Positions 3,001 to 63,551 of a DNA stretch of 64,000 nucleotides are shown here, one piece after another. A model generated the notes under the pieces. The model saw nothing but the letters and a program-made list of their open reading frames with translations. It was not told where the DNA came from and ran no database searches. Numbering within the stretch: position 1 is the first letter of the stretch; each line of letters opens with the position of its first letter. The stretch is from a virus (lineage: Duplodnaviria; Caudoviricetes), in the IMG/VR virus record IMGVR_UViG_3300029705_000021, one strand, 5' to 3'. Made by a program: the position numbers and the translations under genes.

Positions 3001-5768
3001 GTAATGGTGTGACAATAAATACAACGTATTACCCAATGATACGTAGAGCAGAAATTGCAGATAGTACCTTTGAACCTTATAAAGAACACGTTGAATGGAT
3101 ACCACTTAGTAAACCTTTAAGAAGTATTGGTGATGTTAAGGACGAAATCGTATATCAAGATGGTGTATATGGTGTATTGAGAAATTATACCGATGATACA
3201 TATGATGGTTCAGATGACGAAAGTTTAGGTGCAAATTCAACTATAGCTTGGATTTTAAATTCAAGATATAATGTCACAGAAGATAGAGATAAAGCTTTAT
3301 GTACGCATTACACAAATAATCCTAATGTTTCAGTATATAACAATGCGTCAGCAGGCTCAAATTTATCAAATGGAGAATTTGCTCTAGGAACAAGTACTAT
3401 AGCAACAGCAAGATTTTATTTCAAAAACGATAGTATTACTAGTCTTGATTTATGGAAAACATGGTTACAAGCTAACCCTATTAGAATGACATATAGACTT
3501 GCAAATCCAATATTTGAACCATTTGAAGATCAATCTCCATTCTATAATATCAAGACATATAACAATGTAACTCATATATTTATAACAGATGATGCAGAAA
3601 CAAATGTAACATATTATAGAAATTCAACAGATGGTCAAGCTGTATATGATTTAATAAGTAAAGCTACATCAACAGATGGTCAAGCTGTATATGATTTAAT
3701 AAGTAAAGCTACAAATCTTTTAGATGAAGATATTACTGATTTAAATGAAAAGGTAGAATCTTATAATGAAGAAGTAAATGATAGAATTGATGACATGAAA
3801 GTAAATGATGAGTCTTCAGGAAGTCCTATTTTATTAACAGATAGTGCTGATGGAAATCTTATTAACTTTGAATGTACAGGTGGAAGTTCGCAGAAGAGTT
3901 ACAGTGGAAAGAATTTGTTAGAGAATGATGCAACATCACAGACAGTAGGTGGACTTACATTCACAGTAAATGATGATGGAAGTATTAAGGTAAGTGGCAC
4001 AGTAACAGGTGCTAATAATTTACAAATTAAAACCCTTACACTAGCAGCAGGTACTTATGTGTTAAGTGGTATGGAAAATGTAAGTGGTTCAGGCGATATG
4101 GTAATGAGGGTATATGATGTAACGAATAGTAAGATAATAGCAGATTTAAGCAAAGGTTCAACTTCAATTATCTTTACACTTTCAAGCGAAACTACTTTGA
4201 GTATATATATAAACTTTAACACAGTAGGTATAACATATAGTGGTACAATTTATCCAATGATTTCAGTGGAAGGTGGAAACTATGAGCCATATACAGGTGT
4301 ACAGCCAAGCCCTAATCCTTCATATCCACAGCTTATCAAGTCAAAGGGTGATTGTGGGTGGAATGATGGTGAATATTTACAAGGCAGATATGATGGTACA
4401 GGCACATTTATATCATCAAGTAACTATATCTGTAATAAGAACTTAATACCTTGTAATGAAGGTGATGTTGTGAAATTTGCTTATGAAACTACATTAGGAC
4501 AAATTATCATAGGTTTTTATGATAAAGACAAGAATTTTATCAGCAGTTCATATAACCTTAGTCAAAGTGAATATGGGGTTACAGCTCCTACTAATGCTGC
4601 ATATTCTTATTGGAATGCTAATTTAAGTGGTATCACCCCATCCAACGCAAAGAAAATTGTTGTTACGATAAATGGTACTTATACTGTTAAGTTGACTAGC
4701 ATAGGTAAAAATCAATTTGACGAAAGTCAGTTACTTTTAGCTAGTGGGTGGACTTATAGTGATGGGGTTTATAGTGGTTCTATTTGGGAACTCTATAAAG
4801 TATTTAAAAATGGATTTGACTTGCCTAAGTTCCTTACCAATACACAATACACAATATCGTATTATGCGAAAACCGATACTGTTGGAAATAATTCAAGATT
4901 AAGAATATATTATACAGATGGTACTGTTGGCGAATTAGGTTTAGGGAGTTCAACAACAGAATATCAGTATGTAAAATTAATAACTTTAAGTGGTAAAACC
5001 ATACAGAGAATAGGTTATACCTATGGTTCAGATGCAACTATTTACATCAAAAACTTCCAAATCGAAGTAGGTTCAACAGCAACCGAATATAAGAAGTTTG
5101 AGGAACACACCGAATGGATACCACTTGCAGAGCCTTTGCGTGGTATTGGCGATAGTGCTGATACTATCAAGGCTACAGATGACTTGTATAGAGGTCATAG
5201 GAAATTTAAAGAGGTTGTGCTTGATGGTTCAGCAGATTGGGTTTTATCAACAACATTTGTCGGTGCTGTTTATGTAAAAACATTACCTTACGGATTAAAA
5301 CCATTTGGATTAGGATTATGTGATAAATTTACTTATGTAAGTAGTGATTATGCTTACAATAAGGGTAAATTTATGATTGACTCTAACAGTATTCGTTTTT
5401 GGATTCAAGATACAGCATTTGAGAGTATTGATGAGGTAAGAAGTTGGTTTAATGAAAACCCTGTTACTGTATTATATGAGATTGCAGAGGAAGAAATTGA
5501 AGAGCTAGACCAAACACCATTCTATAACCTAAAAACCTTCGAGGGTGTGACGTATATATCAGCGAGTGATGATATGGATATGGTGGTTGAATACTATCGT
5601 AACTCTAATACAGGACAAGCTATGGCTGATTTAGATGTTAAGGTTAATAATCATATTCTAAATTTAGACTTTACTCCTACAGTTAATGATAATGGTAAAA
5701 TACTTGGAATTGTAGATGGTAAAATTTCGTTAATTACTATTACAAATGGAAATGAGGTGAACTATTAA
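3..5768 (+). CDS. Large modular tail fibre / receptor-binding-like protein, 5' truncated by the window edge
   Basis: The frame is open from position 3, so the ATG at 261 is internal. An approximately 690-aa module repeats, marked by EPYxGxxxSPxPxYPQxIKSxGDxGWxDGExLQG near 190, 2280 and 4285. It has beta-rich GKNLL segments and coiled-coil linkers, and sits next to LRR and lysis genes. Confidence 0.7.
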   Translation, partial: LRVCYTDDTNVLLNFANDGSQTLFVTDSSKSVKSLVGVNNVGIATFEYEYFGIQEGICTLEDFEPYVGVHSSPSPDYPQDIKSVGDMGWFDGELLQGYRAKGTLTSVTNHVCSKNFVPCKEGDNIKLAYEENVSQLAIFFYDENMVYISSSYNTNQSEYEVIAPTNACYFDWFINKGSITPSNTKKIVVTINGTYAIKMKSTGKNLLSSDNIITYINANVNNGVVTQSSADTATSVVFKLQTTKNDSYNGEISSNLTVTSTGRYSKKFTKTKDFNGFRFGLNGTDTDTLVKFGVEHLIDDKEYVLSFEVTNITQGSISWKNMQLEIGSEATDYESYKENIEYIPINEPLRSINNVRDEIVCVDNVYGVLRKSGCTHVTSVASKYNTTATNYFYYIETISNLNLKTIVQCNNLIKNNYSQVNGKAIRNVGLSIYRGKLGINVGYYLSANNIDTMNTWLAENPTYMYYQLTETVFEPFENQTIFNNILAYNPTLISATDDMEMEIKYFTNSVDGQLAYEAINKVKNDLNEEILSLDGDITTINDNITRIDGDITTINDNITRIDEDITTLDKKVVLNNTELNDTINSMNLSDKSEGNSILLTNSIDSEVIDFKAYGRSEQVNYTGKHLLKSTLTTTTSNGVTCTDNGDGTYALNGTPSEDTIFNVYADTDLINLLNNYNGQTLNIIGGTSSSIAVCIYIKSESTEFENTSLDRNISRTFTVPTDTVTSASIQIRLKVNTPLSNNVVKPMITTDLTAKYEDYEPYVGGIPSPNPDYPQDIKSVGDMGWFDGELLQGYHSSSSGTYTNSIGYVCSKNMMPCKNGDTIKLIYEETANGLSFVYFDENGTFISKESVNYVSELIGTIPTDARFFHININQSSITPSTAKKIVVIINDTYAVKVKSTGKNLLPSFRSRTASSLTFASNEKGAVAITGTSTSTASPGEIVKLKAGDYILSGASDIANITTSINYLRVIVNGKYYMDKGDGVAFSLEEETEVIVQIVVGNGVTINTTYYPMIRRAEIADSTFEPYKEHVEWIPLSKPLRSIGDVKDEIVYQDGVYGVLRNYTDDTYDGSDDESLGANSTIAWILNSRYNVTEDRDKALCTHYTNNPNVSVYNNASAGSNLSNGEFALGTSTIATARFYFKNDSITSLDLWKTWLQANPIRMTYRLANPIFEPFEDQSPFYNIKTYNNVTHIFITDDAETNVTYYRNSTDGQAVYDLISKATSTDGQAVYDLISKATNLLDEDITDLNEKVESYNEEVNDRIDDMKVNDESSGSPILLTDSADGNLINFECTGGSSQKSYSGKNLLENDATSQTVGGLTFTVNDDGSIKVSGTVTGANNLQIKTLTLAAGTYVLSGMENVSGSGDMVMRVYDVTNSKIIADLSKGSTSIIFTLSSETTLSIYINFNTVGITYSGTIYPMISVEGGNYEPYTGVQPSPNPSYPQLIKSKGDCGWNDGEYLQGRYDGTGTFISSSNYICNKNLIPCNEGDVVKFAYETTLGQIIIGFYDKDKNFISSSYNLSQSEYGVTAPTNAAYSYWNANLSGITPSNAKKIVVTINGTYTVKLTSIGKNQFDESQLLLASGWTYSDGVYSGSIWELYKVFKNGFDLPKFLTNTQYTISYYAKTDTVGNNSRLRIYYTDGTVGELGLGSSTTEYQYVKLITLSGKTIQRIGYTYGSDATIYIKNFQIEVGSTATEYKKFEEHTEWIPLAEPLRGIGDSADTIKATDDLYRGHRKFKEVVLDGSADWVLSTTFVGAVYVKTLPYGLKPFGLGLCDKFTYVSSDYAYNKGKFMIDSNSIRFWIQDTAFESIDEVRSWFNENPVTVLYEIAEEEIEELDQTPFYNLKTFEGVTYISASDDMDMVVEYYRNSNTGQAMADLDVKVNNHILNLDFTPTVNDNGKILGIVDGKISLITITNGNEVNY
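1601..1701 (+). repeat. 42-bp in-frame tandem repeat (about 2.5 copies, DGDITTINDNITRI)
   Basis: Direct repeat agatggagatattactactataaatgataatattactagaat; 14 aa equals two heptads. Confidence 0.9.
3624..3713 (+). repeat. Perfect 45-bp in-frame tandem duplication (STDGQAVYDLISKAT x2)
   Basis: tcaacagatggtcaagctgtatatgatttaataagtaaagctaca occurs twice in tandem. Confidence 0.9.
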
Positions 5769-53386: not shown

Positions 53387-54340
53387 TTAATTAGTTTCGT
53401 CTACTGCCAATTCTTCTGCTTCTTCCATATTTGGAGTTGTTACTATATATTTGCTAGTTTCTAACAATAAATCATCAATAGATAATTCATTATATATGTA
53501 ATATGGAATTCTAATTAATGGTATTTTATTGTTTAGACAATAGATATTTTTTGCTATATCATGCGAATGTCTTTGTTCATAAGATTCTACATCATTCCAA
53601 CCACCAATTGCTTTAAAATGCTGAATGCCATCATATTCAATAAGATATGAAAGATTATTATTATTATCTATGATGCCAAAATCGTATCTTGGTGTTCCAT
53701 TTGTATCCTCAAATTTAAAATTATCAAAAGTATATTGCGGTTTATATGATATATTATTTACTTTTAAAATAGATGATATTTTTTGTTCGCCAAGTGAATG
53801 AATACAGCCACAGCTTATTGTACGACCTTCTCGTAGATTTCTTGATGGTACGTTAGTAATATTACCACAATCACACTGACATTCCCAATAAAGTACTCCT
53901 GGAGCGTCCCCAGTTCCTTTTTTTAATACAGTCAACAAACCAAATTTTTGATCACTAATATCAACACATCTATTTTGGGCTAATTCAACATTATAACAAC
54001 CACAACTTTTAGTATTACCTGATTTTAAATCAGTAGATACAACATCAACAACATTTCCACATTCGCATTGACATTTATATATCTTTTGTCTATGTTTTGT
54101 TCTTCTGTCTAAAAGTTCTATTACAGTTAAACGCTCAAATTTTTGACCAACCAAGTTTTCATTTTTTAAACAACCACATGATAATGTTATTCCTCCAGTG
54201 AGTGCAGTACCTCGAATTGGCTTAATGTTACCACACTCACATTCACATACCCATTTTGTTGGATTTTTATATGGGAAATCTCTATATAATACTGTTAATC
54301 TCCCAAACTTTTGTCCTGTTAAATCTTTAAATCTTCCCAT
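53387..54340 (-). CDS. Homing-endonuclease-like protein (three GQKFGRLTV/CxCxCG repeats plus PD-(D/E)XK domain)
   Basis: Repeated CECG...SCGC units; RYDF...IEYDGIQH...LIRIPY. Confidence 0.75.
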   Translation of the reverse strand: MGRFKDLTGQKFGRLTVLYRDFPYKNPTKWVCECECGNIKPIRGTALTGGITLSCGCLKNENLVGQKFERLTVIELLDRRTKHRQKIYKCQCECGNVVDVVSTDLKSGNTKSCGCYNVELAQNRCVDISDQKFGLLTVLKKGTGDAPGVLYWECQCDCGNITNVPSRNLREGRTISCGCIHSLGEQKISSILKVNNISYKPQYTFDNFKFEDTNGTPRYDFGIIDNNNNLSYLIEYDGIQHFKAIGGWNDVESYEQRHSHDIAKNIYCLNNKIPLIRIPYYIYNELSIDDLLLETSKYIVTTPNMEEAEELAVDETN

Positions 54341-54349
54341 ATCTTCACA

Positions 54350-55615
54350 TTATCCATGATATTTTACTAAAAACTCATTATCAACAGCTTTAAAACTATG
54401 AACACCATCTAAACTTCTGAACACAAGTCCTTCTCTCATACCACCATAAGTTGCAGCTTCACCACCAGCCATAGCCAACACTTCTTCACAAGTATCAGGA
54501 AGAACAATATCAGTTGCTACAATTGGAACTGTTGGAACATTATATTTGTCCATAAGTTCTTTCATTTCAATAGGATTAAGGCGTTTTGTTGTTCCATCTT
54601 TGTATCCAAAAATTACATTGAACACTTCGAATACATGCTCTTTTAAACCATAATCTCTTTTCTGAATTCCTTCTCCAAATGTTTCACCCTGAATAGTTAC
54701 AAATTCATATTCATCTGTAAGTAAAGCTTCTAAAATATTTTTAATTGAATATTTATCTGCCATTTCAGTATAAACATTTATATCATACCACGAACCATCT
54801 TTACGATTTGTCATGACAACGTTTCTAGAACAAACAAAATATTCTTGATTTTTACCATGACCTTTTAAAGACATTGTGGTGCTCGTCCCATCTCGTTTTT
54901 CTGTACCGATCCACTTAGTGTTAATAGAATGTACATGTGAAAAACAGTTTTGAACTCTCTCTTCGTCTGTCTTAACAATATGTGAAGGGAAACTCTTAAC
55001 ACCATTCTTTTTATCTCCACCAAGAATTAAATACAATAGTTTCTTAGCAAACACATGCTTCATACACCAACGACCAAATCTACTCTTTGCAAGTTTAGGA
55101 TGTCTATTCATCATACGTTGATATTTTGCATTTGGATTATTCTTGTTGCTTTTTCTCTTATTATCTTCTGGATCTGCATATGTAACTCCTAATTTTGATG
55201 TAAGGAAATCACCTTCTTCAAATGATTCAATTCCACCAGTTTCAGTCTCTGCTACAATAGTCATGCCATATGAATCTGCATGAATTGTCCAACCAAAATC
55301 TTGAGCAGACATTAATAGTCCTTGTGAATAGAAATTACCAATTTTATTTCCTTCTGCATCTTTTAAGGCAAACTTTTGTGTCTTGATTTTTCCATGATAT
55401 TTTTCCGTAAAAGCAAACTCTGGTTTAGAGGTGTCGAGTTTTGAATCAATTTCAAAATAAATTCCTAAGTCACCTGGCTTAAAAGCACCAACTGGGATCA
55501 TACACGTCCATCCACCTACTTTAGCACACTCAACTCTGTCTCTTCCATGAATCGGTTCAATACTATCAACTCTTACAACATAAACTAATTCTCTTTGTCC
55601 ATCTTTGTTTAACAT
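54350..55615 (-). CDS. ATP-dependent RNA ligase (DRB0094/Rnl5-like, with an N-terminal OB domain)
   Basis: Nucleotidyltransferase motifs TEKRDGTS, QGETFG, FEVFNV, REGLVFR, SFKAV; YFEIDS and KTDEERVQN. Confidence 0.9.
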   Translation of the reverse strand: MLNKDGQRELVYVVRVDSIEPIHGRDRVECAKVGGWTCMIPVGAFKPGDLGIYFEIDSKLDTSKPEFAFTEKYHGKIKTQKFALKDAEGNKIGNFYSQGLLMSAQDFGWTIHADSYGMTIVAETETGGIESFEEGDFLTSKLGVTYADPEDNKRKSNKNNPNAKYQRMMNRHPKLAKSRFGRWCMKHVFAKKLLYLILGGDKKNGVKSFPSHIVKTDEERVQNCFSHVHSINTKWIGTEKRDGTSTTMSLKGHGKNQEYFVCSRNVVMTNRKDGSWYDINVYTEMADKYSIKNILEALLTDEYEFVTIQGETFGEGIQKRDYGLKEHVFEVFNVIFGYKDGTTKRLNPIEMKELMDKYNVPTVPIVATDIVLPDTCEEVLAMAGGEAATYGGMREGLVFRSLDGVHSFKAVDNEFLVKYHG

Positions 55616-57441: not shown

Positions 57442-57484
57442 TGTATTCTCCTTTCTTATAAAATTAGTTAGTTTAAACTAAGAA

Positions 57485-57559
57485 TTACGATTAATAGATT
57501 CGAACTATTGACCTCCACTTTTTTATATAGTGGTGCTCTCGCCACTGAGCTAAATCGCA
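57485..57559 (-). tRNA. tRNA-like gene with an aberrant 9-nt anticodon loop (AUAUAAAAA)
   Basis: Acceptor TGCGATT/AATCGTA, D arm GCTC/GAGC, anticodon stem CCACT/AGTGG, T arm AATAG-TTCGAAT-CTATT. Confidence 0.75.
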
Positions 57560-57617
57560 ACTGAATTCATACTTTAATTAAAGTCACTCATAAATCTGCG
57601 CACCTATTATGAGTAAA

Positions 57618-57689
57618 CTCTAGTAACGAGAATCGAACTCGTGACATGTGGATTTCCGTCCACTGTTCTGCCAACTGAACTATACTAGA
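57618..57689 (-). tRNA. tRNA-like gene (Asn-like body) with an aberrant 6-nt anticodon loop (CGGAAA)
   Basis: Acceptor TCTAGTA/TACTAGA, G73, D arm GTTC/GAAC, stem GTGGA/TCCAC, T arm ACGAG-TTCGATT-CTCGT. Confidence 0.75.
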
Positions 57690-57699
57690 GTATAAAACA

Positions 57700-59264: not shown

Positions 59265-60770
59265 TTAAATTACTTCTTTTAATGCTTCTTCTACCATGTT
59301 ATAACGTTCTTTATTAAGTTCTGCAATTAAACACTTATATGGATCAACTTCACCATTCATAACCATATTAATTAAGTTTACACTGTATCCAGACATCAAT
59401 ACAACGCCATATTCATTGCTTTGTAATGGGATAACATTTCTAGAACCAGATCCTGCTACATTCCAAAAGATTAATCTTGGAAGATGATAGTTATGTGCTT
59501 TGTACATATCACTGATATTTTCAAATAAAGCTTTTGTAAAGTTATGACTATGCGCATCAAACTGCATATCACTGATTACCACAATATTTCTAGGCATTTC
59601 TTCTTGTGGAAGATTATTCTTAATAGCAACATCTAAAACAAGTTTAAAAACTGCTTCAATATTTGTATTGCTACAATCATCTTCTTTATATGTCTTTACA
59701 AGCTTATCATGTAAATTATCATATCCAGACAAATCAATTAATTTAGGTCTTGCACTAAAAGTAATAAACTGATTAGCAAACTGTCCTTCACATCTTTCAG
59801 ACATATAAATTGCTAATGCTGTACTAACATCTAATGGTTTTCCACTATCAGCCCATGACATACTACCAGAACCATCTCTAACAACTAATGTATTGCCAGT
59901 TGATTCAAAATTCGGAAGTGCTTTCCACATTTCTTCTAATGCAATATCCTTATTTTGTAAGTAATATCCTCTGCCATATTTATGTACAATTTCATCTGGG
60001 AACAGAACTTTTGAATTAATCTTAACATTCTTATCTCCACGTTCAAGAGCTGCCAAATACTCTCTACGTCTTTCTTCATCGTTTCTAAGGAATGCACTGT
60101 TGTAAATAAGGTTACTACGACTAGGTACTGCTGAGTAATTAATCTCATTCCACTGTTTAGCAGACATCTTTACTTCAACTACATCTAAGTAAGCACGAAG
60201 TTTAGATAAAGTTTTTCTGTATTGTCTCTCAGTCATGCCAATTTCTTTATAAATAATCTTAGCAAGTCTTTTTGTTTCTTTAGAAGAAGCGTTAACACTT
60301 GGAAGCCATTTTGCAATAAGACTACATGGTTTATTGTCCATCATATTCTTGGCATCTTCATTAAGCTGCTTCTTAATAATTGCAATAACGTCAGTCTTTA
60401 ATTCTGTATCAAGTAAACCTAATACATCATCATATCTACCAAACTCTGGAATTAAAGCAATTACTGCCTTAGCAACAGATGGATGATTCTTTGCTAAATA
60501 TTTCATGATTACTCTAAAAGTTCTTCTCTCGCCAATTCCTTCACGAGCATCTCTAACATAAAATAACCACTTCATTGCTAACATCTTGTTCTCATAAAAT
60601 GCATCTACAAATTTTGCAGCAATTGTATCTTCTGTCATTTTTCTTAAAGTTGTAACTTGAAAATTAAGATCTAACAAATTTTTGCCAGAAGTCTTATATC
60701 CAATTGCTCCATTTGTAGTAATAGCTTTTTCATTTTTCATTTCGTTTTTTAATCCATCCATAAAACTCAT
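59265..60770 (-). CDS. TROVE/Ro60-like protein (DUF2828-type helical repeat plus vWA/MIDAS domain)
   Basis: TTNGA, LFYVRDAREGIGER, FGRYDD, IAKWLPS, YRKTLS; vWA motifs VVRDGSGSM, ITFS, TNIEAVF, ISDMQFD, IFWNV. Confidence 0.85.
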   Translation of the reverse strand: MSFMDGLKNEMKNEKAITTNGAIGYKTSGKNLLDLNFQVTTLRKMTEDTIAAKFVDAFYENKMLAMKWLFYVRDAREGIGERRTFRVIMKYLAKNHPSVAKAVIALIPEFGRYDDVLGLLDTELKTDVIAIIKKQLNEDAKNMMDNKPCSLIAKWLPSVNASSKETKRLAKIIYKEIGMTERQYRKTLSKLRAYLDVVEVKMSAKQWNEINYSAVPSRSNLIYNSAFLRNDEERRREYLAALERGDKNVKINSKVLFPDEIVHKYGRGYYLQNKDIALEEMWKALPNFESTGNTLVVRDGSGSMSWADSGKPLDVSTALAIYMSERCEGQFANQFITFSARPKLIDLSGYDNLHDKLVKTYKEDDCSNTNIEAVFKLVLDVAIKNNLPQEEMPRNIVVISDMQFDAHSHNFTKALFENISDMYKAHNYHLPRLIFWNVAGSGSRNVIPLQSNEYGVVLMSGYSVNLINMVMNGEVDPYKCLIAELNKERYNMVEEALKEVI

Positions 60771-60810
60771 AATTCTTTTCTCCTTTTTGAATTGATATAT
60801 TTTTCAATTC

Positions 60811-60912
60811 CAAGACACTTTAATGCACCAGATATTCTGGCTACTGGATTTGAACCAGATTAAAACTTTTGCAGAGTTTGTATTTACCATTTAACTTTGC
60901 TGTAAGTGCCTT
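60811..60912 (-). ncRNA. ACAGCAA-motif RNA enclosing an acceptor-less tRNA-Cys(GCA) (D-like loop, anticodon arm, T arm)
   Basis: AAGGCACTT-ACAGCAA...AAATGGTA...AAACT-CTGCAAA-AGTTT...CTGG-TTCAAAT-CCAG...AAGTGTCTTG. Confidence 0.8.
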
Positions 60913-60924
60913 TATGGAATTAAT

Positions 60925-61043
60925 GCAGAGTGGGAAGATTCGAACTTCCGTCTCGGTCTTAACAGGACAATTGTAAAATTGCAGTTGAAGTTTTTTTTCA
61001 AAACTCAATTAATTACGTGTTCTATCCGCTGAACTACACTCCA
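60925..61043 (-). tRNA. tRNA-Asn(GTT)-like gene with a 47-nt motif insertion (60969-61015) in the anticodon stem
   Basis: Removing the insert restores CGGTC-CTGTTAA-GACCG. The insert has GAGTTTTG/AAAACTTC then ACTGCAA. Confidence 0.8.
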
Positions 61044-61058
61044 CTTATTTTATTATTA

Positions 61059-61126
61059 CAAGACGGTTTTAAGACTATTAAAATATTTACAGTATTCTCA
61101 AGTTTTAATATTGCTGTATCCGTCTT
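61059..61126 (-). ncRNA. ACAGCAA-motif RNA carrying a Tyr(GTA) anticodon stem-loop
   Basis: AAGACGG-AT-ACAGCAA...AGAATA-CTGTAAA-TATTTT...CCGTCTTG. Confidence 0.75.
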
Positions 61127-61129
61127 AAA

Positions 61130-61253
61130 GTCGGGATGTGGGACTCGAACCCACGACCACGTGCTCCCCAAGCAATAGAAAAAAATTGCTGTTTACGTCT
61201 TTTACAAGACACATTATCTTTTTACGTGCTCTAACCAGCTGAGCTAATCCCGA
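61130..61253 (-). tRNA. tRNA-Pro(GGG)-like gene with a 50-nt motif insertion (61175-61224) in the anticodon stem
   Basis: Removing the insert restores CGTGC-TTGGGGA-GCACG. The insert has GTGTCTTG-TAA-AAGACGT-AA-ACAGCAA. Confidence 0.85.
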
Positions 61254-61256
61254 CAG

Positions 61257-61394
61257 TGAGGAAGATAGGATTCGAACCTATACGTCATTTAAGACAGGAG
61301 ATTTTCAGTCTCCACTATTTAAAAGTTGCTGTAAATGTCTTGCTAGACACTTTTGTGAATTTTATCCTGCGTCTGCCAGTTCCGCCACTTCCTC
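61257..61394 (-). tRNA. tRNA with a Leu-type body, GAA (Phe) anticodon and an approximately 54-nt motif insertion (about 61312-61365)
   Basis: D arm GCGGAACTGGCAGACGC, long variable arm, A73; GGAGA-CTGAAAA-TCTCC. The insert has GTGTCT-AGCA-AGACAT-TT-ACAGCAA. Confidence 0.8.
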
Positions 61395-61411
61395 ATGTTT
61401 GATGGCTTTGT

Positions 61412-61527
61412 TGGAGCAATTTGGAATCGAACCAAAGGTAAAAACCTGCTGAATGTTTTCAAAATTAAAATTGCTGTAAGCGATTGCCATCCTATTCGCT
61501 TTATAAACCGCCATCCAGACTTGCTCC
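61412..61527 (-). ncRNA. Degenerate tRNA-like RNA with an internal ACAGCAA-motif hairpin
   Basis: Acceptor GGAGCAA/TTGCTCC, T arm TTTGG-TTCGATT-CCAAA, internal AGCGA/TCGCT-T-ACAGCAA; D and anticodon arms eroded. Confidence 0.6.
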
Positions 61528-61545
61528 ATATTATTTAGTTTTTTA

Positions 61546-61608
61546 CAAGACACTTTAAACTTATCAGATCCCCAATCAGATGTTTTATTCGATTGCTGTT
61601 TGTGTCTT
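61546..61608 (-). ncRNA. ACAGCAA-motif RNA carrying a Pro(GGG) anticodon stem-loop
   Basis: AAGACAC-AA-ACAGCAA...ATCTGA-TTGGGGA-TCTGAT...GTGTCTTG. Confidence 0.8.
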
Positions 61609-61646
61609 TAAACATAGGCTCAACATCAAGCCTATAGATTAAAAGC

Positions 61647-61781
61647 TTACATTGAAGCTTCCATATTTCTTATTTCTCTTTTGAGCTTTTTAACAGCACC
61701 TGGACATTTGATGTTCTTATTACTTGCCTCAAGCTTCTGTAATCTGTTCTTCTTTAATGCTAAAATCTCTGTCTGTGTCAT
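61647..61781 (-). CDS. 44-aa basic protein inside the RNA array, missed by the ORF track (MTQTEILALKKNRLQKLEASNKNIKCPGAVKKLKREIRNMEASM)
   Basis: AAGGAG RBS, ATG...TAA, followed by a hairpin. Confidence 0.7.
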   Translation of the reverse strand: MTQTEILALKKNRLQKLEASNKNIKCPGAVKKLKREIRNMEASM

Positions 61782-61852
61782 TCTTATTTCTCCTTGTTAT
61801 AAATTTTTAAGTAATCATTCACAAATTTTTTAGTTGTGTATATTTACTTGAA

Positions 61853-61925
61853 CAGGGCTAGTTGGATTCGAACCAACGAGATGCAGGAGTCAAAGTCCTG
61901 TGCCTTACCGCTTGGCGATAGCCCT
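61853..61925 (-). tRNA. tRNA-Gln(TTG)
   Basis: Canonical cloverleaf, CAGGA-CTTTGAC-TCCTG. Confidence 0.92.
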
Positions 61926-62018
61926 AGACACTTGGTTTTTTAAAGATGACCAAGCAAACATCTAATCTATTTTTACTAGAAAGGAGGCGTATAGGAGATA
62001 TATTGATTTATCTCCGAG

Positions 62019-62090
62019 TGGGTCATGTGGGACTCGAACCCACGACTCTCAAATTAAAAGTTTGATACTCTACCACTGAGTTAATGACCC
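62019..62090 (-). tRNA. tRNA-Lys(TTT)
   Basis: Canonical cloverleaf, TCAAA-CTTTTAA-TTTGA. Confidence 0.92.
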
Positions 62091-62095
62091 ATATA

Positions 62096-62163
62096 CAAGG
62101 CGGCTATTTTGGCTATCACAAATTAAAAGTTTGTTGCTTGTTCAGATTTGCTGTAACCGCCTT
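62096..62163 (-). ncRNA. ACAGCAA-motif RNA carrying a Lys(TTT) anticodon stem-loop
   Basis: AAGGCGG-TT-ACAGCAA...ACAAA-CTTTTAA-TTTGT...CCGCCTTG. Confidence 0.85.
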
Positions 62164-62319
62164 TATACATTTGTATTTTTTCTTATTGTCTCTGGAAGAA
62201 ACTCAGTATTGTTTTGGCAAACTAAATGCCTACCACAAATAACAACATTTATCTTCAGTTTTATGTATTTTTGATTAGTTAAGAGATTGAACAACCAAGT
62301 CCTCTCTTGAACTGTAATC

Positions 62320-62589
62320 ATTATATCATAACTGTTTTTATTTGTCAAGAACTTTTTTCATTTTTTAAAATTAATTAGTCTTAATTATTTTTTAAAGCTT
62401 TGAGATATTTTCTCTGCTCTTGACTCTTCAATGATATCATACTTGTCAAATTTTGTCAAGCACTTTTTTCAAATTTTTTGTAAATAAAATTTTAGTTTGT
62501 TTAGTAGCATATTATGTGTAAGAAACTCAACAATCAAGTGGTTCTCTTAAGCACAGTTATATATTATCATAACTTCCAAATAATGTCAA
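62320..62589 (-). promoter_or_regulatory. Three tandem sigmaA-type promoters feeding the tRNA/motif-RNA/TROVE operon
   Basis: TTGACA-17-TATAAT (62320-62348), TTGACA-17-TATCAT (62431-62459) and TTGACA-17-TAATAT (62561-62589), all with extended TG. Confidence 0.75.
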
Positions 62590-62618: not shown

Positions 62619-63551
62619 TTAGTGAGCAGCTAGATCTGCTTCGTGCAACAAATCTAATGATTTAATTAGTTCATCACCAAGCAACAATCTGTCTTTTTCT
62701 CTCGCCTTATCACTATCTCGCCAATCCATAAAATACTTCATATGTAAATTAATAAGTAAAGATACATACAAAAGATCTTTATCGCTCCATTCAGGATGCA
62801 TTTTTCTTACATAGAATAAGCTTAGGTAAGCTCCAACATTATGATGACCATAGAATTTAGCATCACCATAAATTTCTCCATTATCATCAATATCATAAAA
62901 CTTCGTACTAGGCTTACCACAATCATGTAACAGTGTAGCTGTAATCAATCTTATATCATTTGTTCTATCCTTAATATAATCACAAGCAGCGAGCATATGA
63001 CTTCCAACAGTCAATGAATGATGAATATTATCATGAGATATCACACGCCATCTGCACATATCATCTTTAATATTGTATTCAAATCCTGGTAAACCTTTAT
63101 ATTTCCACCAAACAATCTGAATATCATCAAATCCTTCAGTATACCAAGGAGTCTCGAAGCTTTTATACATTCTCTCAAGAACTTCTTCAGGAACATGTCT
63201 ATCTCTAGCACAGTTATTCGCTAAGCAAAACTCATATGGGGTAGCAAATAAAACGCAAATCTTTTCACAAGAAATGCCTTTAAGCTCATTATTCAGAAAA
63301 TGCACTCTTTTCTTGCGTGAAAGATTTGTAGCATCATATATAACATTCTTACCAGCTCTCAAGTCGTCCTTAATTCTCTGATGTAATATCTTGAATACCA
63401 ATTCATTCTTACTCTGGTCGTTCACATCACCTAATTCTGCTCTAATTTCATCGCTAGATAAAACAACCCAGTCTTTATTGTATTTATATTGTTCGCAATA
63501 TGTAGATTTCCCCGATGCAGGTAAACCCACTGTAACATATATTTTACTCAT
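62619..63551 (-). CDS. Polynucleotide kinase (AAA_33) fused to an HD phosphoesterase; RNA end-healing enzyme
   Basis: GLPASGKST, SSDEIR, YDATNL, NCARDR; HSLTVGSH, LLHDCGKP, FYGHHNVG, LHEAD. Confidence 0.85.
   Translation of the reverse strand: MSKIYVTVGLPASGKSTYCEQYKYNKDWVVLSSDEIRAELGDVNDQSKNELVFKILHQRIKDDLRAGKNVIYDATNLSRKKRVHFLNNELKGISCEKICVLFATPYEFCLANNCARDRHVPEEVLERMYKSFETPWYTEGFDDIQIVWWKYKGLPGFEYNIKDDMCRWRVISHDNIHHSLTVGSHMLAACDYIKDRTNDIRLITATLLHDCGKPSTKFYDIDDNGEIYGDAKFYGHHNVGAYLSLFYVRKMHPEWSDKDLLYVSLLINLHMKYFMDWRDSDKAREKDRLLLGDELIKSLDLLHEADLAAH

What the first reader, a model, noticed from the sequence alone, without database searches (positions are those of the whole stretch)
60925..61394. 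Three different tRNA genes interrupted at the same anticodon-stem position by approximately 50-nt tag hairpins
Seen: in the Asn(GTT), Pro(GGG) and GAA tRNAs, deleting 47, 50 and about 54 nt after the second base of the anticodon stem (28/29) restores perfect 5-bp stems and 7-nt loops. The inserts differ in sequence but each is an AU-rich hairpin carrying the tag. They are far too short for group I or II introns and I see no bulge-helix-bulge. Inference: either a new protein-dependent tRNA intron type (TROVE recognition plus kinase and ligase joining), or a permanent handle that turns a tRNA into an RNP decoy. Standard tRNA finders would probably miss or miscall these genes.
Basis: partly seen in the sequence, partly recalled or inferred. 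Interest (0 to 1): 0.9.

Follow-up and report, generated by a model that had tools for sequence, protein, structure and literature searches.

The report
Phage tRNAs carrying a Ro60-protein handle
Three phage tRNA genes really are split in the anticodon stem by about 50 bases, but the insert is most likely not an intron: it is the binding handle of a Ro60-like ring protein encoded next door, which turns tRNAs into tRNA-shaped partner RNAs, probably for counter-defence.

Summary
On the minus strand, deleting 47, 50 and 54 nt gives canonical tRNAs with anticodons GUU, GGG and GAA. An unbiased deletion scan finds exactly these three; controls find none.

Each insert is a covarying hairpin followed by unpaired AC(A/U)GCAA. 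The same module closes stand-alone small RNAs in this array. It also lies beside the same protein family (DUF2828) in Bacillus, Listeria, Staphylococcus, Campylobacter, Enterococcus, Felix-O1-like and mycobacterial phages. The protein's predicted fold matches Ro60 (TROVE plus vWA).

I found about 80 distinct tagged tRNAs in more than 100 viral contigs, most with the junction after nt 28.

Several features argue against a translating, spliced tRNA:
- CCA is rarely encoded and the discriminator varies.
- Some anticodons mismatch the tRNA body.
- Anticodons switch between near-identical genes.
- Some coexist with normal isoacceptors.
- Relatives exist that no deletion could turn into a tRNA.
- There is no bulge-helix-bulge and no nearby splicing endonuclease.

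Anticodons are mainly Asn, Lys and Thr, the published PARIS/OLD nuclease targets. P2-OLD cuts at 28/29.

Best reading: permanent tRNA/Y-RNA chimeras, probably nuclease baits. This is a new variant of Ro60/Y RNA particles. Splicing is not excluded. This scan reached similar readings earlier on other phage DNA.

The parts
60925..61043 (-). Tagged tRNA with Asn anticodon GUU. 5' part 61043-61016, insert 61015-60969 (47 nt), 3' part 60968-60925. Discriminator C; no CCA encoded.
   Evidence: Rfam tRNA 33.8 bits in sensitive mode only. ARAGORN score 120 after deletion.
60969..61015 (-). Asn insert: A/U linker, hairpin, then unpaired ACUGCAA (tag variant), then a U-rich linker.
   Evidence: The hairpin covaries across relatives.
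61130..61253 (-). Tagged tRNA with Pro anticodon GGG. 5' part 61253-61225, insert 61224-61175 (50 nt), 3' part 61174-61130. Discriminator C; no CCA encoded.
   Evidence: ARAGORN score 124-128 after deletion. Not called by default ARAGORN or Rfam.
61175..61224 (-). Pro insert: hairpin GUGUCUU/AAGACGU followed by AA-ACAGCAA.
61257..61394 (-). Tagged type-II tRNA (long variable arm, Leu-like D arm, A73) with the Phe anticodon GAA. 5' part 61394-61366, insert 61365-61312 (54 nt), 3' part 61311-61257.
   Evidence: The junction is ambiguous between 26/27 and 29/30.
61312..61365 (-). GAA insert: hairpin GUGUCU/AGACAU followed by UU-ACAGCAA.
61060..61127 (-). Stand-alone module between the Pro and Asn genes. 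The helix AAGACGG/CCGUCUU is closed by the RNA's own ends, with AU-ACAGCAA next to the 5' strand.
   Evidence: Same architecture in L001, Tsamsa, Listeria, Staphylococcus and Felix-O1-like phages.
59265..60770 (-). Ro60-like protein gene (DUF2828 + DUF7788/vWA, 501 aa) directly downstream of the RNA array. It is the presumed binder of the tag.
   Evidence: Pfam; PHROG 850, 'RNA-binding protein'; model pLDDT 87; full-length Foldseek matches to Ro60 structures 9kop, 1yvp, 9l5y, 2nvo.
62320..62348 (-). Perfect sigma-70 consensus promoter (TTGACA-17-TATAAT, with TG) upstream of the whole RNA array.
   Evidence: No terminator-like site lies within 60700-62450.
62619..63551 (-). Polynucleotide kinase (AAA_33) fused to an HD phosphohydrolase, upstream on the same strand. 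An RNA end-healing enzyme.
54350..55615 (-). ATP-dependent RNA ligase (RNA_ligase + PHA02142 OB domain), downstream on the same strand. An RNA end-sealing enzyme.

Best explanation
These are tRNA/Y-RNA chimeras, not intron-containing tRNA genes.

Each is a complete tRNA into whose anticodon stem a 40-65-nt module has been built, on the 5' strand, usually after nt 28. The module is a 6-7-bp hairpin followed by 2-3 nt and the unpaired heptamer AC(A/U)GCAA. It is the recognition module of the phage's Ro60-like ring protein (DUF2828, TROVE + vWA fold), encoded directly downstream.

In stand-alone partner RNAs the same helix is closed by the RNA's 5' and 3' ends. In the tagged tRNAs it is capped by a loop and the ends sit at the acceptor stem. 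A tagged tRNA is therefore a circular permutation of a Y RNA whose cargo is a whole tRNA.

Shown:
- The module, its covariation and its conservation.
- Its linkage to the protein gene.
- The protein's fold.

Inferred:
- The protein binds the module and the insert stays in the mature RNA.
- The tRNA body gives processing, stability and an L shape.
- The displayed anticodon arm is the working part.

Most likely the particle offers that arm as a bait or competitor to host tRNA-cutting defence nucleases that act on the anticodon stem or loop. The neighbouring kinase-phosphatase and RNA ligase could then reseal nicks.

My odds are about 0.55 for the permanent handle and about 0.3 for the nuclease-bait function in particular.
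For: 1. The tag is not specific to introns. Seven tags lie on one strand within 60897-62154. They sit in three tRNAs, in stand-alone helices and in tRNA-like RNAs lacking an acceptor stem or an anticodon loop.

2. The same module lies beside DUF2828 genes, on the same strand, in Bacillus phage Tsamsa, Enterococcus, Listeria, Staphylococcus, Campylobacter, Felixounavirus JH2 and mycobacteriophage LeBron. In JH2 and LeBron it closes RNAs with YrlA architecture (Rfam YrlA 39.8 bits in LeBron).

3. The DUF2828 model (pLDDT 87) matches Ro60 structures over its full length, including phage phiLo Ro60 (E 1e-7 to 1e-6).

4. In 26 aligned tagged tRNAs, 97% of cells pair against 43% in slid controls. 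The insert hairpin has double-sided changes at 6 of 7 pairs plus one invariant G-C.

5. Marks of translation are missing.
- CCA is encoded in 7 of 79 tagged tRNAs, against about 60% of normal tRNAs in the same loci.
- The discriminator of tagged Asn is A7/C5/G9/T5, against G7/T2 in normal Asn.
- Here Asn and Pro both have C73.
- A GCU (Ser) anticodon sits on a type-I body, GAA on a Leu-like type-II body, and some loops have 8 nt.

6. Anticodons switch in genes 95-98% identical: UGU/UGA, GUU/UCU, UGU/GGU. Five of ten multi-member 85% clusters hold more than one anticodon.

7. Nine of 58 tagged tRNAs have a normal tRNA with the same anticodon within 8.5 kb.

8. Anticodons are dominated by Asn GUU, Lys UUU and Thr UGU/GGU: 45 of 71 unique sequences and 27 of 49 cluster-anticodon combinations.

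9. Published work:
- PARIS AriB cuts tRNA-Lys(UUU), Thr(UGU) and Asn(GUU) in the anticodon stem at 40/41 (PMC12409363).
- P2-OLD cuts tRNA-Thr(UGU) between 28 and 29 and after 40 (PMC12445682).
- A Ro60-like protein of phage Bas63, next to its tRNA array, counters the Ppl defence system (bioRxiv 10.1101/2024.10.10.617714).
- Three very abundant small RNAs lie upstream of the Rsr-like gene of a P100-like Listeria phage (PMC12282133).
Against: - No RNA data exist for this phage, so retention of the insert is inferred.
- Precise deletion restores a perfect 5-bp stem and 7-nt loop in about 80 distinct genes, which is also what an intron model predicts.
- In this phage Asn(GUU), Pro(GGG) and GAA exist only in tagged form.
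- Kinase, phosphatase and ligase are the enzymes a heal-and-seal splicing pathway would need.
- The nuclease link rests on E. coli systems, while this 30% GC phage has an unknown host. The P2-OLD CNG motif register (28-30 / 40-42) is not the register of the conserved C27-G28 here.
- The tagged tRNAs share ancestry, so the anticodon bias is partly phylogenetic.
- Sequences for the covariation test were picked with ARAGORN. That favours the tRNA helices, though not the insert hairpin.
Confidence: 0.55

Rival explanations
1. Protein-dependent tRNA intron. The insert is recognised, perhaps through the Ro60-like protein, and cut out at both junctions by an unidentified endonuclease. The halves are then healed and sealed by the neighbouring kinase-HD phosphatase and RNA ligase, giving translating tRNAs.
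For: - Exact deletion restores canonical tRNAs.
- The 5' junction is conserved as CG|UA in 65 of 79 genes.
- Healing and sealing enzymes lie in the locus.
- This phage has no uninterrupted Asn, Pro or Phe tRNA.
- An uninterrupted version of the main family body is essentially absent from IMG/VR.
Against: - No BHB in 0 of 79 genes, and the inserts are too short for group I or II introns, with no Rfam match.
- No endonuclease candidate among neighbouring genes. The only gene strongly linked to tagged loci is a Band-7/SPFH protein.
- The same module is the constant part of stand-alone RNAs, and of tRNA-like RNAs that cannot become tRNAs by any deletion.
- CCA is rarely encoded, the discriminator varies, identities mismatch, and normal isoacceptors coexist.
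Confidence: 0.15
2. Nuclease-proof working tRNAs. The insert stays in, disrupts the helix at the site where OLD/PARIS-type Toprim nucleases act, and the tRNA is still charged and used by the ribosome.
For: - The insert sits at P2-OLD site 1 (28/29), opposite the AriB site 40/41 (PMC12445682, PMC12409363).
- The anticodon set overlaps the targets of these nucleases.
- Cloverleaf and loop are fully canonical.
Against: - By established ribosome structure, a 40-65-nt branch in the anticodon stem, presumably with a 57-kDa ring bound to it, should clash with the 30S A and P sites.
- The discriminator is unconstrained and CCA is mostly absent.
- Ser and Phe anticodons on the wrong bodies would cause mistranslation.
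Confidence: 0.07
3. DNA-level explanation. A small mobile or palindromic element has inserted into tRNA genes at a preferred target, leaving pseudogenes with no RNA-level role.
For: The inserts are short hairpin-containing sequences at a recurrent site following CACG.
Against: - Strict strand specificity and linkage to DUF2828 genes across very distant phages.
- Compensatory changes in the hairpin and in the interrupted stem.
- No empty-site alleles.
- The module also occurs split around other cargos, which a transposed unit would not do.
Confidence: 0.03
4. Permuted units. The real RNAs run from the second half of one insert to the first half of the next, so each is a YrlA-like RNA made of a tRNA 3' half plus the next tRNA's 5' half.
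For: - A weak Rfam YrlA hit (20.2 bits, gathering score 69) spans the GAA 3' half and the Pro 5' half.
- AAGACAU in the GAA insert could pair with GUGUCUU in the Pro insert.
Against: - Relatives carry single tagged tRNAs with no tagged neighbour.
- The hairpin covaries locally within each insert.
- Any two adjacent tRNAs imitate the T arm-acceptor-D arm order of YrlA.
- The two acceptor strands at the GAA-Pro junction do not pair properly.
Confidence: 0.02

Closest known systems
YrlA-type bacterial and phage Y RNAs bound by Ro60/Rsr (Rfam RF02553; Chen et al. 2014, PMC4201824; structure preprint 10.1101/312249)
   Same: - Small RNAs encoded next to, and on the same strand as, a Ro60-fold protein.
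- A protein-binding helix joined to a tRNA-like domain with real T and D arms.
- Linkage to RNA repair genes.
- In phages LeBron and JH2 the same helix-plus-ACAGCAA module closes RNAs with true YrlA architecture.
   Different: - YrlA has the order T arm, closed acceptor-like hairpin, D arm. It has no anticodon arm, and its ends lie in the Ro-binding stem.
- Here the tRNA order is normal, the acceptor ends are open and a full anticodon stem-loop is kept. The binding helix is a capped branch inside the anticodon stem.
- The conserved motif is ACAGCAA, not GNCGAAN0-1G.
- The Rfam score is 20 bits against a threshold of 69.
- The protein falls in Pfam DUF2828, not TROVE.
Deinococcus radiodurans Yrn1 (Y RNA with D-like loop, 'anticodon arm' and T-like arm; PMC4201824)
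   Same: A Y RNA in which the Ro-binding stem takes the place of the acceptor stem and an anticodon-like arm is kept. This matches the neighbouring element at 60912-60815.
   Different: Yrn1 has a 6-nt loop and a degenerate D arm. The three genes here keep the acceptor stem and a canonical 7-nt loop.
Thermus phage phiLo Ro60 with Yrl1/Yrl2 (PMC12135203; PDB 9KOP, 9L5Y)
   Same: A phage-encoded Ro60-fold protein with small partner RNAs encoded just upstream. It is the top structural match of the protein here.
   Different: The phiLo RNAs are simple stem-bulge-stem Y RNAs with a CGAA motif. No tRNA is interrupted.
Archaeal and eukaryal protein-spliced tRNA introns, including non-canonical positions (PMC4090602)
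   Same: A short insert in a tRNA gene whose removal restores a canonical tRNA. Ends would be joined by a kinase and ligase pathway.
   Different: No bulge-helix-bulge, no splicing endonuclease gene seen, and a bacteriophage context. The insert is a module that is also used outside tRNAs.
Phage T4 Pnkp/Rnl1 tRNA repair, and nuclease-resistant phage tRNAs (T5 against PARIS, PMC11464382, PMC12409363; phage tRNA-Thr against P2-OLD, PMC12445682)
   Same: A phage tRNA cluster with kinase-phosphatase and RNA ligase. The anticodons (Lys, Thr, Asn) match known nuclease targets.
   Different: Known resistant tRNAs escape by point substitutions and remain ordinary tRNAs. None carries a protein-binding insert.
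Engineered 'tRNA scaffold' RNAs (from my own knowledge: Ponchon and Dardel 2007, not checked here)
   Same: A tRNA body used as a stable, correctly processed carrier for a foreign structured RNA placed in the anticodon arm.
   Different: That is an artificial design in which the anticodon stem-loop is replaced. Here the design is natural and the anticodon loop is kept.

Membership tests
Ro60/Y RNA particles (YrlA-type tRNA-mimic Y RNAs) | Encoded close to, and on the same strand as, a Ro60-fold (TROVE + vWA) protein gene | tested here: met
   The three genes lie 155-625 nt upstream of the DUF2828 gene on the same strand. The fold matches Ro60 over its full length.
Ro60/Y RNA particles (YrlA-type tRNA-mimic Y RNAs) | Conserved protein-binding helix with an adjacent conserved motif | tested here: inconclusive
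   A conserved, covarying helix plus ACAGCAA is present and closes YrlA-shaped RNAs in LeBron and JH2. It is not the published GNCGAAN0-1G motif, and the Rfam model does not cover it.
Ro60/Y RNA particles (YrlA-type tRNA-mimic Y RNAs) | tRNA-like domain with T and D arms | tested here: met
   Full cloverleaf.
Ro60/Y RNA particles (YrlA-type tRNA-mimic Y RNAs) | YrlA topology and a score above the Rfam RF02553 threshold | tested here: not met
   Best hit is 20.2 bits against a gathering score of 69, and it spans two adjacent genes. The order of arms is that of a normal tRNA.
Ro60/Y RNA particles (YrlA-type tRNA-mimic Y RNAs) | Physical binding of the RNA to the Ro60-type protein | not testable with these tools
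   Needs EMSA or RIP-seq. The complex predictor offered does not take RNA.
tRNA (Rfam RF00005), functional in translation | Uninterrupted cloverleaf detected by standard tools | tested here: not met
   Default ARAGORN of 3 and Rfam default of 3. The cloverleaf is canonical only after deletion.
tRNA (Rfam RF00005), functional in translation | Identity elements that fit the anticodon (for example G73 for bacterial tRNA-Asn, a long variable arm for Ser; established knowledge) | tested here: not met
   Asn here has C73. Tagged Asn discriminators are A7/C5/G9/T5. GCU sits on a type-I body and GAA on a Leu-like type-II body.
Protein-spliced tRNA introns (archaeal/eukaryal type) | Bulge-helix-bulge (or relaxed HBh') at the two splice sites | tested here: not met
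   0 of 79 can form hBHBh'. Relaxed forms are rarer than in shuffled inserts.
Protein-spliced tRNA introns (archaeal/eukaryal type) | A splicing endonuclease encoded by the genome | tested here: inconclusive
   None appeared among the neighbouring ORFs scanned with Pfam and PHROGs. The whole phage genome and the unknown host were not searched.
Self-splicing group I / group II introns and small self-cleaving ribozymes | Ribozyme core of sufficient size, or a match to a known family | tested here: not met
   The inserts are 47-54 nt. No Rfam family matched, even at E up to 10.

The most novel reading that the evidence does not exclude
The inserts are true introns of a kind unknown in bacteria or phages. 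The Ro60-like ring recognises the hairpin-ACAGCAA module and an unidentified nuclease releases it, possibly a host defence nuclease that cuts anticodon stems at 28/29. The phage kinase-phosphatase and RNA ligase then join the halves. Working tRNAs would thus be produced on demand during the tRNA-cutting response.
Probability: 0.12. Interest if true: 0.95.

Novelty: new variant of a known kind. Interest (0 to 1): 0.72.

Why it matters
Ro60 and Y RNAs are conserved from bacteria to humans, yet what the tRNA-like part of bacterial Y RNAs is for remains open. Here the tRNA-like part is a complete tRNA whose only fast-evolving piece is the anticodon. The anticodons chosen are those that known anti-phage nucleases attack. 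That gives a concrete, testable idea: phage Ro60 particles display anticodon arms to tRNA-cutting defence systems.

It also matters for annotation. More than 100 viral contigs carry such genes. Standard tRNA finders miss or miscall them, and they could be mistaken for introns or pseudogenes.

If the insert were spliced after all, it would be the first protein-dependent tRNA splicing outside archaea and eukaryotes.

Tried and rejected
- DNA similarity of the RNA array to 50,697 phage records: no match.
- Profile search of the protein against PDB sequences: only noise. The fold search was needed.
- Rfam at the gathering threshold and at E up to 10: no family for the module. The weak YrlA hit spans two adjacent genes and was rejected as a permuted unit.
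- Bulge-helix-bulge search: none.
- Search for an uninterrupted allele of the main family in IMG/VR: one unrelated tRNA-Lys.
- Search for a nuclease gene linked to tagged loci by ORF clustering over 90 loci. The strongest association is a Band-7/SPFH protein (25 of 50 tagged loci against 2 of 40 untagged), probably confounded by relatedness. No nuclease emerged.
- Tag-anchored deletion scan of seven cultured-phage loci (Listeria, Staphylococcus, Campylobacter, JH2, LeBron, Tsamsa, Enterococcus): stand-alone modules only and no stem-interrupted tRNA. The single hit, in Tsamsa, is an artefact of two adjacent tRNAs.
- Literature search for DUF2828: nothing relevant.
The coordinates were recomputed from references.
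- I did not search metagenome or transcriptome contigs for spliced junctions, because a 75-nt RNA would not be assembled as a contig.
Full report
**1. What is there**

The window is the last 64 kb of a 106.7-kb, 30% GC phage contig. All RNA genes discussed here lie on the minus strand.

| tRNA | Span | Insert | Discriminator |
|---|---|---|---|
| Asn(GUU) | 61043-60925 | 61015-60969 (47 nt) | C |
| Pro(GGG) | 61253-61130 | 61224-61175 (50 nt) | C |
| 85-nt type-II tRNA, long variable arm, anticodon GAA | 61394-61257 | 61365-61312 (54 nt) | A |

None encodes CCA.

I then tried every deletion of 20-90 nt at every position of 60780-61700 and scored the products with ARAGORN. The three best solutions are exactly these, with scores of 120-128. 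Ten other segments of the window and six shuffles gave one score of 101.7 and otherwise nothing.

The junction is unambiguous for Asn, after nt 28. Repeated bases leave one alternative for Pro (29/30) and a range of 26/27 to 29/30 for GAA.

- Default ARAGORN and Rfam find none of the three.
- ARAGORN with introns finds all three but miscalls two.
- Sensitive Rfam finds only Asn, at 33.8 bits.

**2. What the insert is**

Each insert holds a hairpin followed by 2-3 nt and the heptamer ACAGCAA (ACUGCAA in Asn).

The heptamer occurs seven times on this strand between 60897 and 62154. Across the whole window it occurs 20 times, against 9.5 expected. The other copies are not in introns:
- Two lie in stand-alone RNAs whose helix (AAGACNN / NNGUCUU) is closed by the RNA's own ends: 61612-61545 and 61127-61060.
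- One lies in a tRNA-like RNA without an acceptor stem: 60912-60815.
- One lies in a tRNA-like RNA without a proper anticodon loop: about 61530-61410.
- One lies at 62154.

The helix-plus-heptamer is the same motif in both settings. In the inserts the far end of the helix is capped by a loop. In the stand-alone RNAs that end carries the termini. A tagged tRNA is thus a circular permutation of a stand-alone RNA whose cargo is a whole tRNA.

**3. The neighbouring protein**

The array ends 55 nt before a 501-aa gene (60770-59265) with Pfam DUF2828 and DUF7788/vWA and PHROG 850, 'RNA-binding protein'.

A profile search of PDB sequences found nothing. An AlphaFold model built on 28 relatives (pLDDT 87) matches Ro60 structures over its full length:
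- Thermus phage phiLo Ro60 (9kop, 9l5y).
- Xenopus and human Ro60 (1yvp, 9nfa).
- Deinococcus Rsr (2nvo).

These hits have E of 1e-7 to 4e-5 and TM of about 0.55.

A kinase-HD fusion (62619-63551) and an RNA ligase (54350-55615) lie on the same strand. A perfect sigma-70 promoter at 62348-62320 precedes the array, and no terminator-like site follows it. The RNAs are therefore probably cut out of one transcript.

**4. Relatives**

The protein has homologues in 710 phage records. In every cultured phage I opened, two to four stand-alone modules lie beside the gene on its strand. These phages were Bacillus Tsamsa, Enterococcus VRE9_3, Listeria LMTA-34, Staphylococcus CF1, Campylobacter CP81, Felixounavirus JH2 and mycobacteriophage LeBron.

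In JH2 and LeBron the module closes RNAs with YrlA architecture: T arm, closed acceptor hairpin, D arm. Rfam YrlA scores 39.8 bits in LeBron, and the model begins just after the heptamer. The module is therefore the protein-side end of the Y RNAs of this protein family.

Stem-interrupted tRNAs were not found in the cultured-phage loci I scanned, but they are common in metagenomic relatives. In 92 loci around DUF2828 genes, a tag-anchored deletion scan found 92 distinct interrupted tRNA-like genes that plain ARAGORN misses.

| Junction | Number of genes |
|---|---|
| Exactly after nt 28 | 36 |
| After nt 29 | 6 |
| After nt 26/27 | 3 |
| In the loop at 32/33 | about 10 |
| 3' side of the loop, with no credible anticodon | about 25 |

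An exact pattern scan of IMG/VR for the main family's 5' junction, tag and T loop hit 106 contigs. It yielded 71 distinct genes, 67 of them with the junction after nt 28. That pattern fixes the 5' junction, so this proportion is by design.

An uninterrupted version of the family is essentially absent. That absence, and the many independent assemblies, rule out an assembly artefact or a recent mobile insertion.

**5. Structure**

In an alignment of 26 tagged tRNAs, the cloverleaf, the split anticodon stem and the insert hairpin are all supported:
- 97.1% of cells pair, against 32-49% when partners are slid.
- 23 of 28 pairs have double-sided changes.
- The insert hairpin, which played no part in choosing the sequences, has double-sided changes at 6 of 7 pairs and one invariant G-C.
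- The outer two pairs of the anticodon stem are almost invariant (C27-G43, G28-C42).
- The insert starts with UA in 65 of 79 genes.

No bulge-helix-bulge can form at the junctions in any of 79 genes.

**6. Intron or permanent handle?**

Five observations speak for a permanent handle.

First, the module is the constant part of RNAs that are not interrupted genes, and of tRNA-like RNAs that no deletion could turn into tRNAs.

Second, marks of selection for translation are missing.
- CCA is encoded in 7 of 79 tagged tRNAs but in about 60% of the normal tRNAs in the same loci.
- The discriminator of tagged Asn is A7/C5/G9/T5, whereas normal Asn tRNAs of these phages have G7/T2.
- G73 is an identity element of bacterial tRNA-Asn (established knowledge).
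- The Asn and Pro genes here have C73.

Third, anticodon and body disagree in several cases:
- GCU (Ser) on a type-I body.
- GAA (Phe) on a Leu-like type-II body in this window.
- 8-nt loops.

Fourth, the anticodon is the fastest-changing part. Genes 95-98% identical differ as UGU/UGA, GUU/UCU or UGU/GGU. Five of ten multi-member 85% clusters hold more than one anticodon.

Fifth, 9 of 58 tagged tRNAs have a normal tRNA with the same anticodon within 8.5 kb.

For an intron speak the exact restoration of canonical tRNAs, the conserved 5' junction, the healing and sealing enzymes, and the absence of normal Asn, Pro and Phe tRNAs in this phage. No endonuclease candidate was found near the loci. 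The only gene strongly linked to tagged loci is a Band-7/SPFH protein.

**7. Likely function**

Anticodons of the stem-interrupted class are dominated by Asn GUU, Lys UUU and Thr UGU/GGU. They make up 45 of 71 distinct genes and 27 of 49 cluster-anticodon combinations after de-replication. Among normal tRNAs of the same loci they make up about 10%.

Published work bears on this:
- The PARIS effector AriB cuts E. coli tRNA-Lys(UUU), Thr(UGU) and Asn(GUU) in the anticodon stem at 40/41, and phage T5 escapes with variant tRNAs (PMC12409363).
- P2-OLD cuts tRNA-Thr(UGU) between 28 and 29 and after 40. This detaches the anticodon arm so that phage ligases cannot repair it (PMC12445682).
- A Ro60-like protein of phage Bas63, next to its tRNA array, counters the Ppl defence system (bioRxiv 10.1101/2024.10.10.617714).
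- A P100-like Listeria phage makes three very abundant small RNAs upstream of its Rsr-like gene (PMC12282133). This fits the three modules I see upstream of the gene in Listeria phage LMTA-34.

From this I infer, but have not shown, that the particle displays an anticodon arm as bait or competitor for tRNA-cutting defence nucleases. The module sits at, or opposite, the place where Toprim nucleases cut.

Caveats:
- The host is unknown.
- The P2-OLD motif register differs by one base pair.
- Shared ancestry inflates the anticodon bias.

**8. Comparison and novelty**

Ro60-like proteins with tRNA-mimicking Y RNAs in bacteria and phages are known (PMC4201824, PMC12135203, PMC7824862). What I could not find described is two things:
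- This module (helix plus ACAGCAA) as the partner of the DUF2828 branch.
- A complete tRNA, with open acceptor ends and a canonical, rapidly switching anticodon loop, carrying the module as a branch in its anticodon stem.

It fails the YrlA membership test on topology and score, but it works like a Y RNA. I file it as a new variant of a known kind.

Earlier notes of this scan on other phage genomes reached the same reading. I saw those on other genomes only after my own analysis, and I do not count them as evidence.

Noticed in passing
window 61545-61612 (-) and 61060-61127 (-): Two stand-alone helix-plus-ACAGCAA RNAs. The first carries UUGGGGA, the anticodon-loop sequence of the neighbouring tagged Pro(GGG) tRNA, in its variable part.
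   Followed up: partly
window 60815-60912 (-): tRNA-like RNA with a D-like loop, an anticodon arm (GCA) and a T arm, enclosed by the tag helix instead of an acceptor stem. This is Yrn1-like topology. Rfam tRNA gives 22.8 bits for the inner part.
   Followed up: partly
window 61410-61530 (-): tRNA-like gene with good acceptor and T arms, in which the tag hairpin replaces a proper anticodon arm. ARAGORN calls part of it a 94-nt tRNA-Lys(ttt). Homologous degenerate genes occur in L001 (about 3636-3750) and L009 (about 3730-3850).
   Followed up: partly
window 62320-62348 (-): Perfect sigma-70 consensus promoter with an extended -10 TG, upstream of the whole RNA array. No terminator-like sites lie between it and the Ro60-like gene, so the array is probably one processed transcript.
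   Followed up: no
L002:1046-2113 and relatives: A Band-7/SPFH protein gene lies upstream of the RNA array in 25 of 50 loci with stem-interrupted tRNAs but in only 2 of 40 without. This may simply reflect relatedness of the phages.
   Followed up: partly
L201 (Listeria phage LMTA-34) 3165, 3253, 3322: Three tag modules lie in the 330 nt upstream of the DUF2828 gene. A published transcriptome of a P100-like Listeria phage reports three very abundant unexplained RNAs upstream of its Rsr-like gene (PMC12282133). They are probably the same thing.
   Followed up: no
L034, L046, L053 (about 2030-2158, 3152-3278, 3212-3340): A separate family with a Gly(GCC)-like loop in which the module sits in the anticodon loop at 32/33. 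Two of the three end in CCA. The placement of the 7 loop bases is not unique.
   Followed up: partly
window 53387-54340 (-): An HNH/homing-endonuclease-like gene lies directly downstream of the RNA ligase gene (PHROG 374/559).
   Followed up: no
genome contig C1 34-106 (+), outside the window: A normal tRNA-Thr(UGU) sits at the very start of the contig. Together with the normal Lys(UUU) at window 62018-62090 and the tagged Asn(GUU), the phage carries all three anticodons reported as PARIS targets.
   Followed up: no
window 57617-57690 (-) and 57484-57560 (-): Two tRNA-like genes with intact stems but non-standard anticodon loops (6 nt and 9 nt by the Rfam alignment), further downstream in the same cluster.
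   Followed up: no
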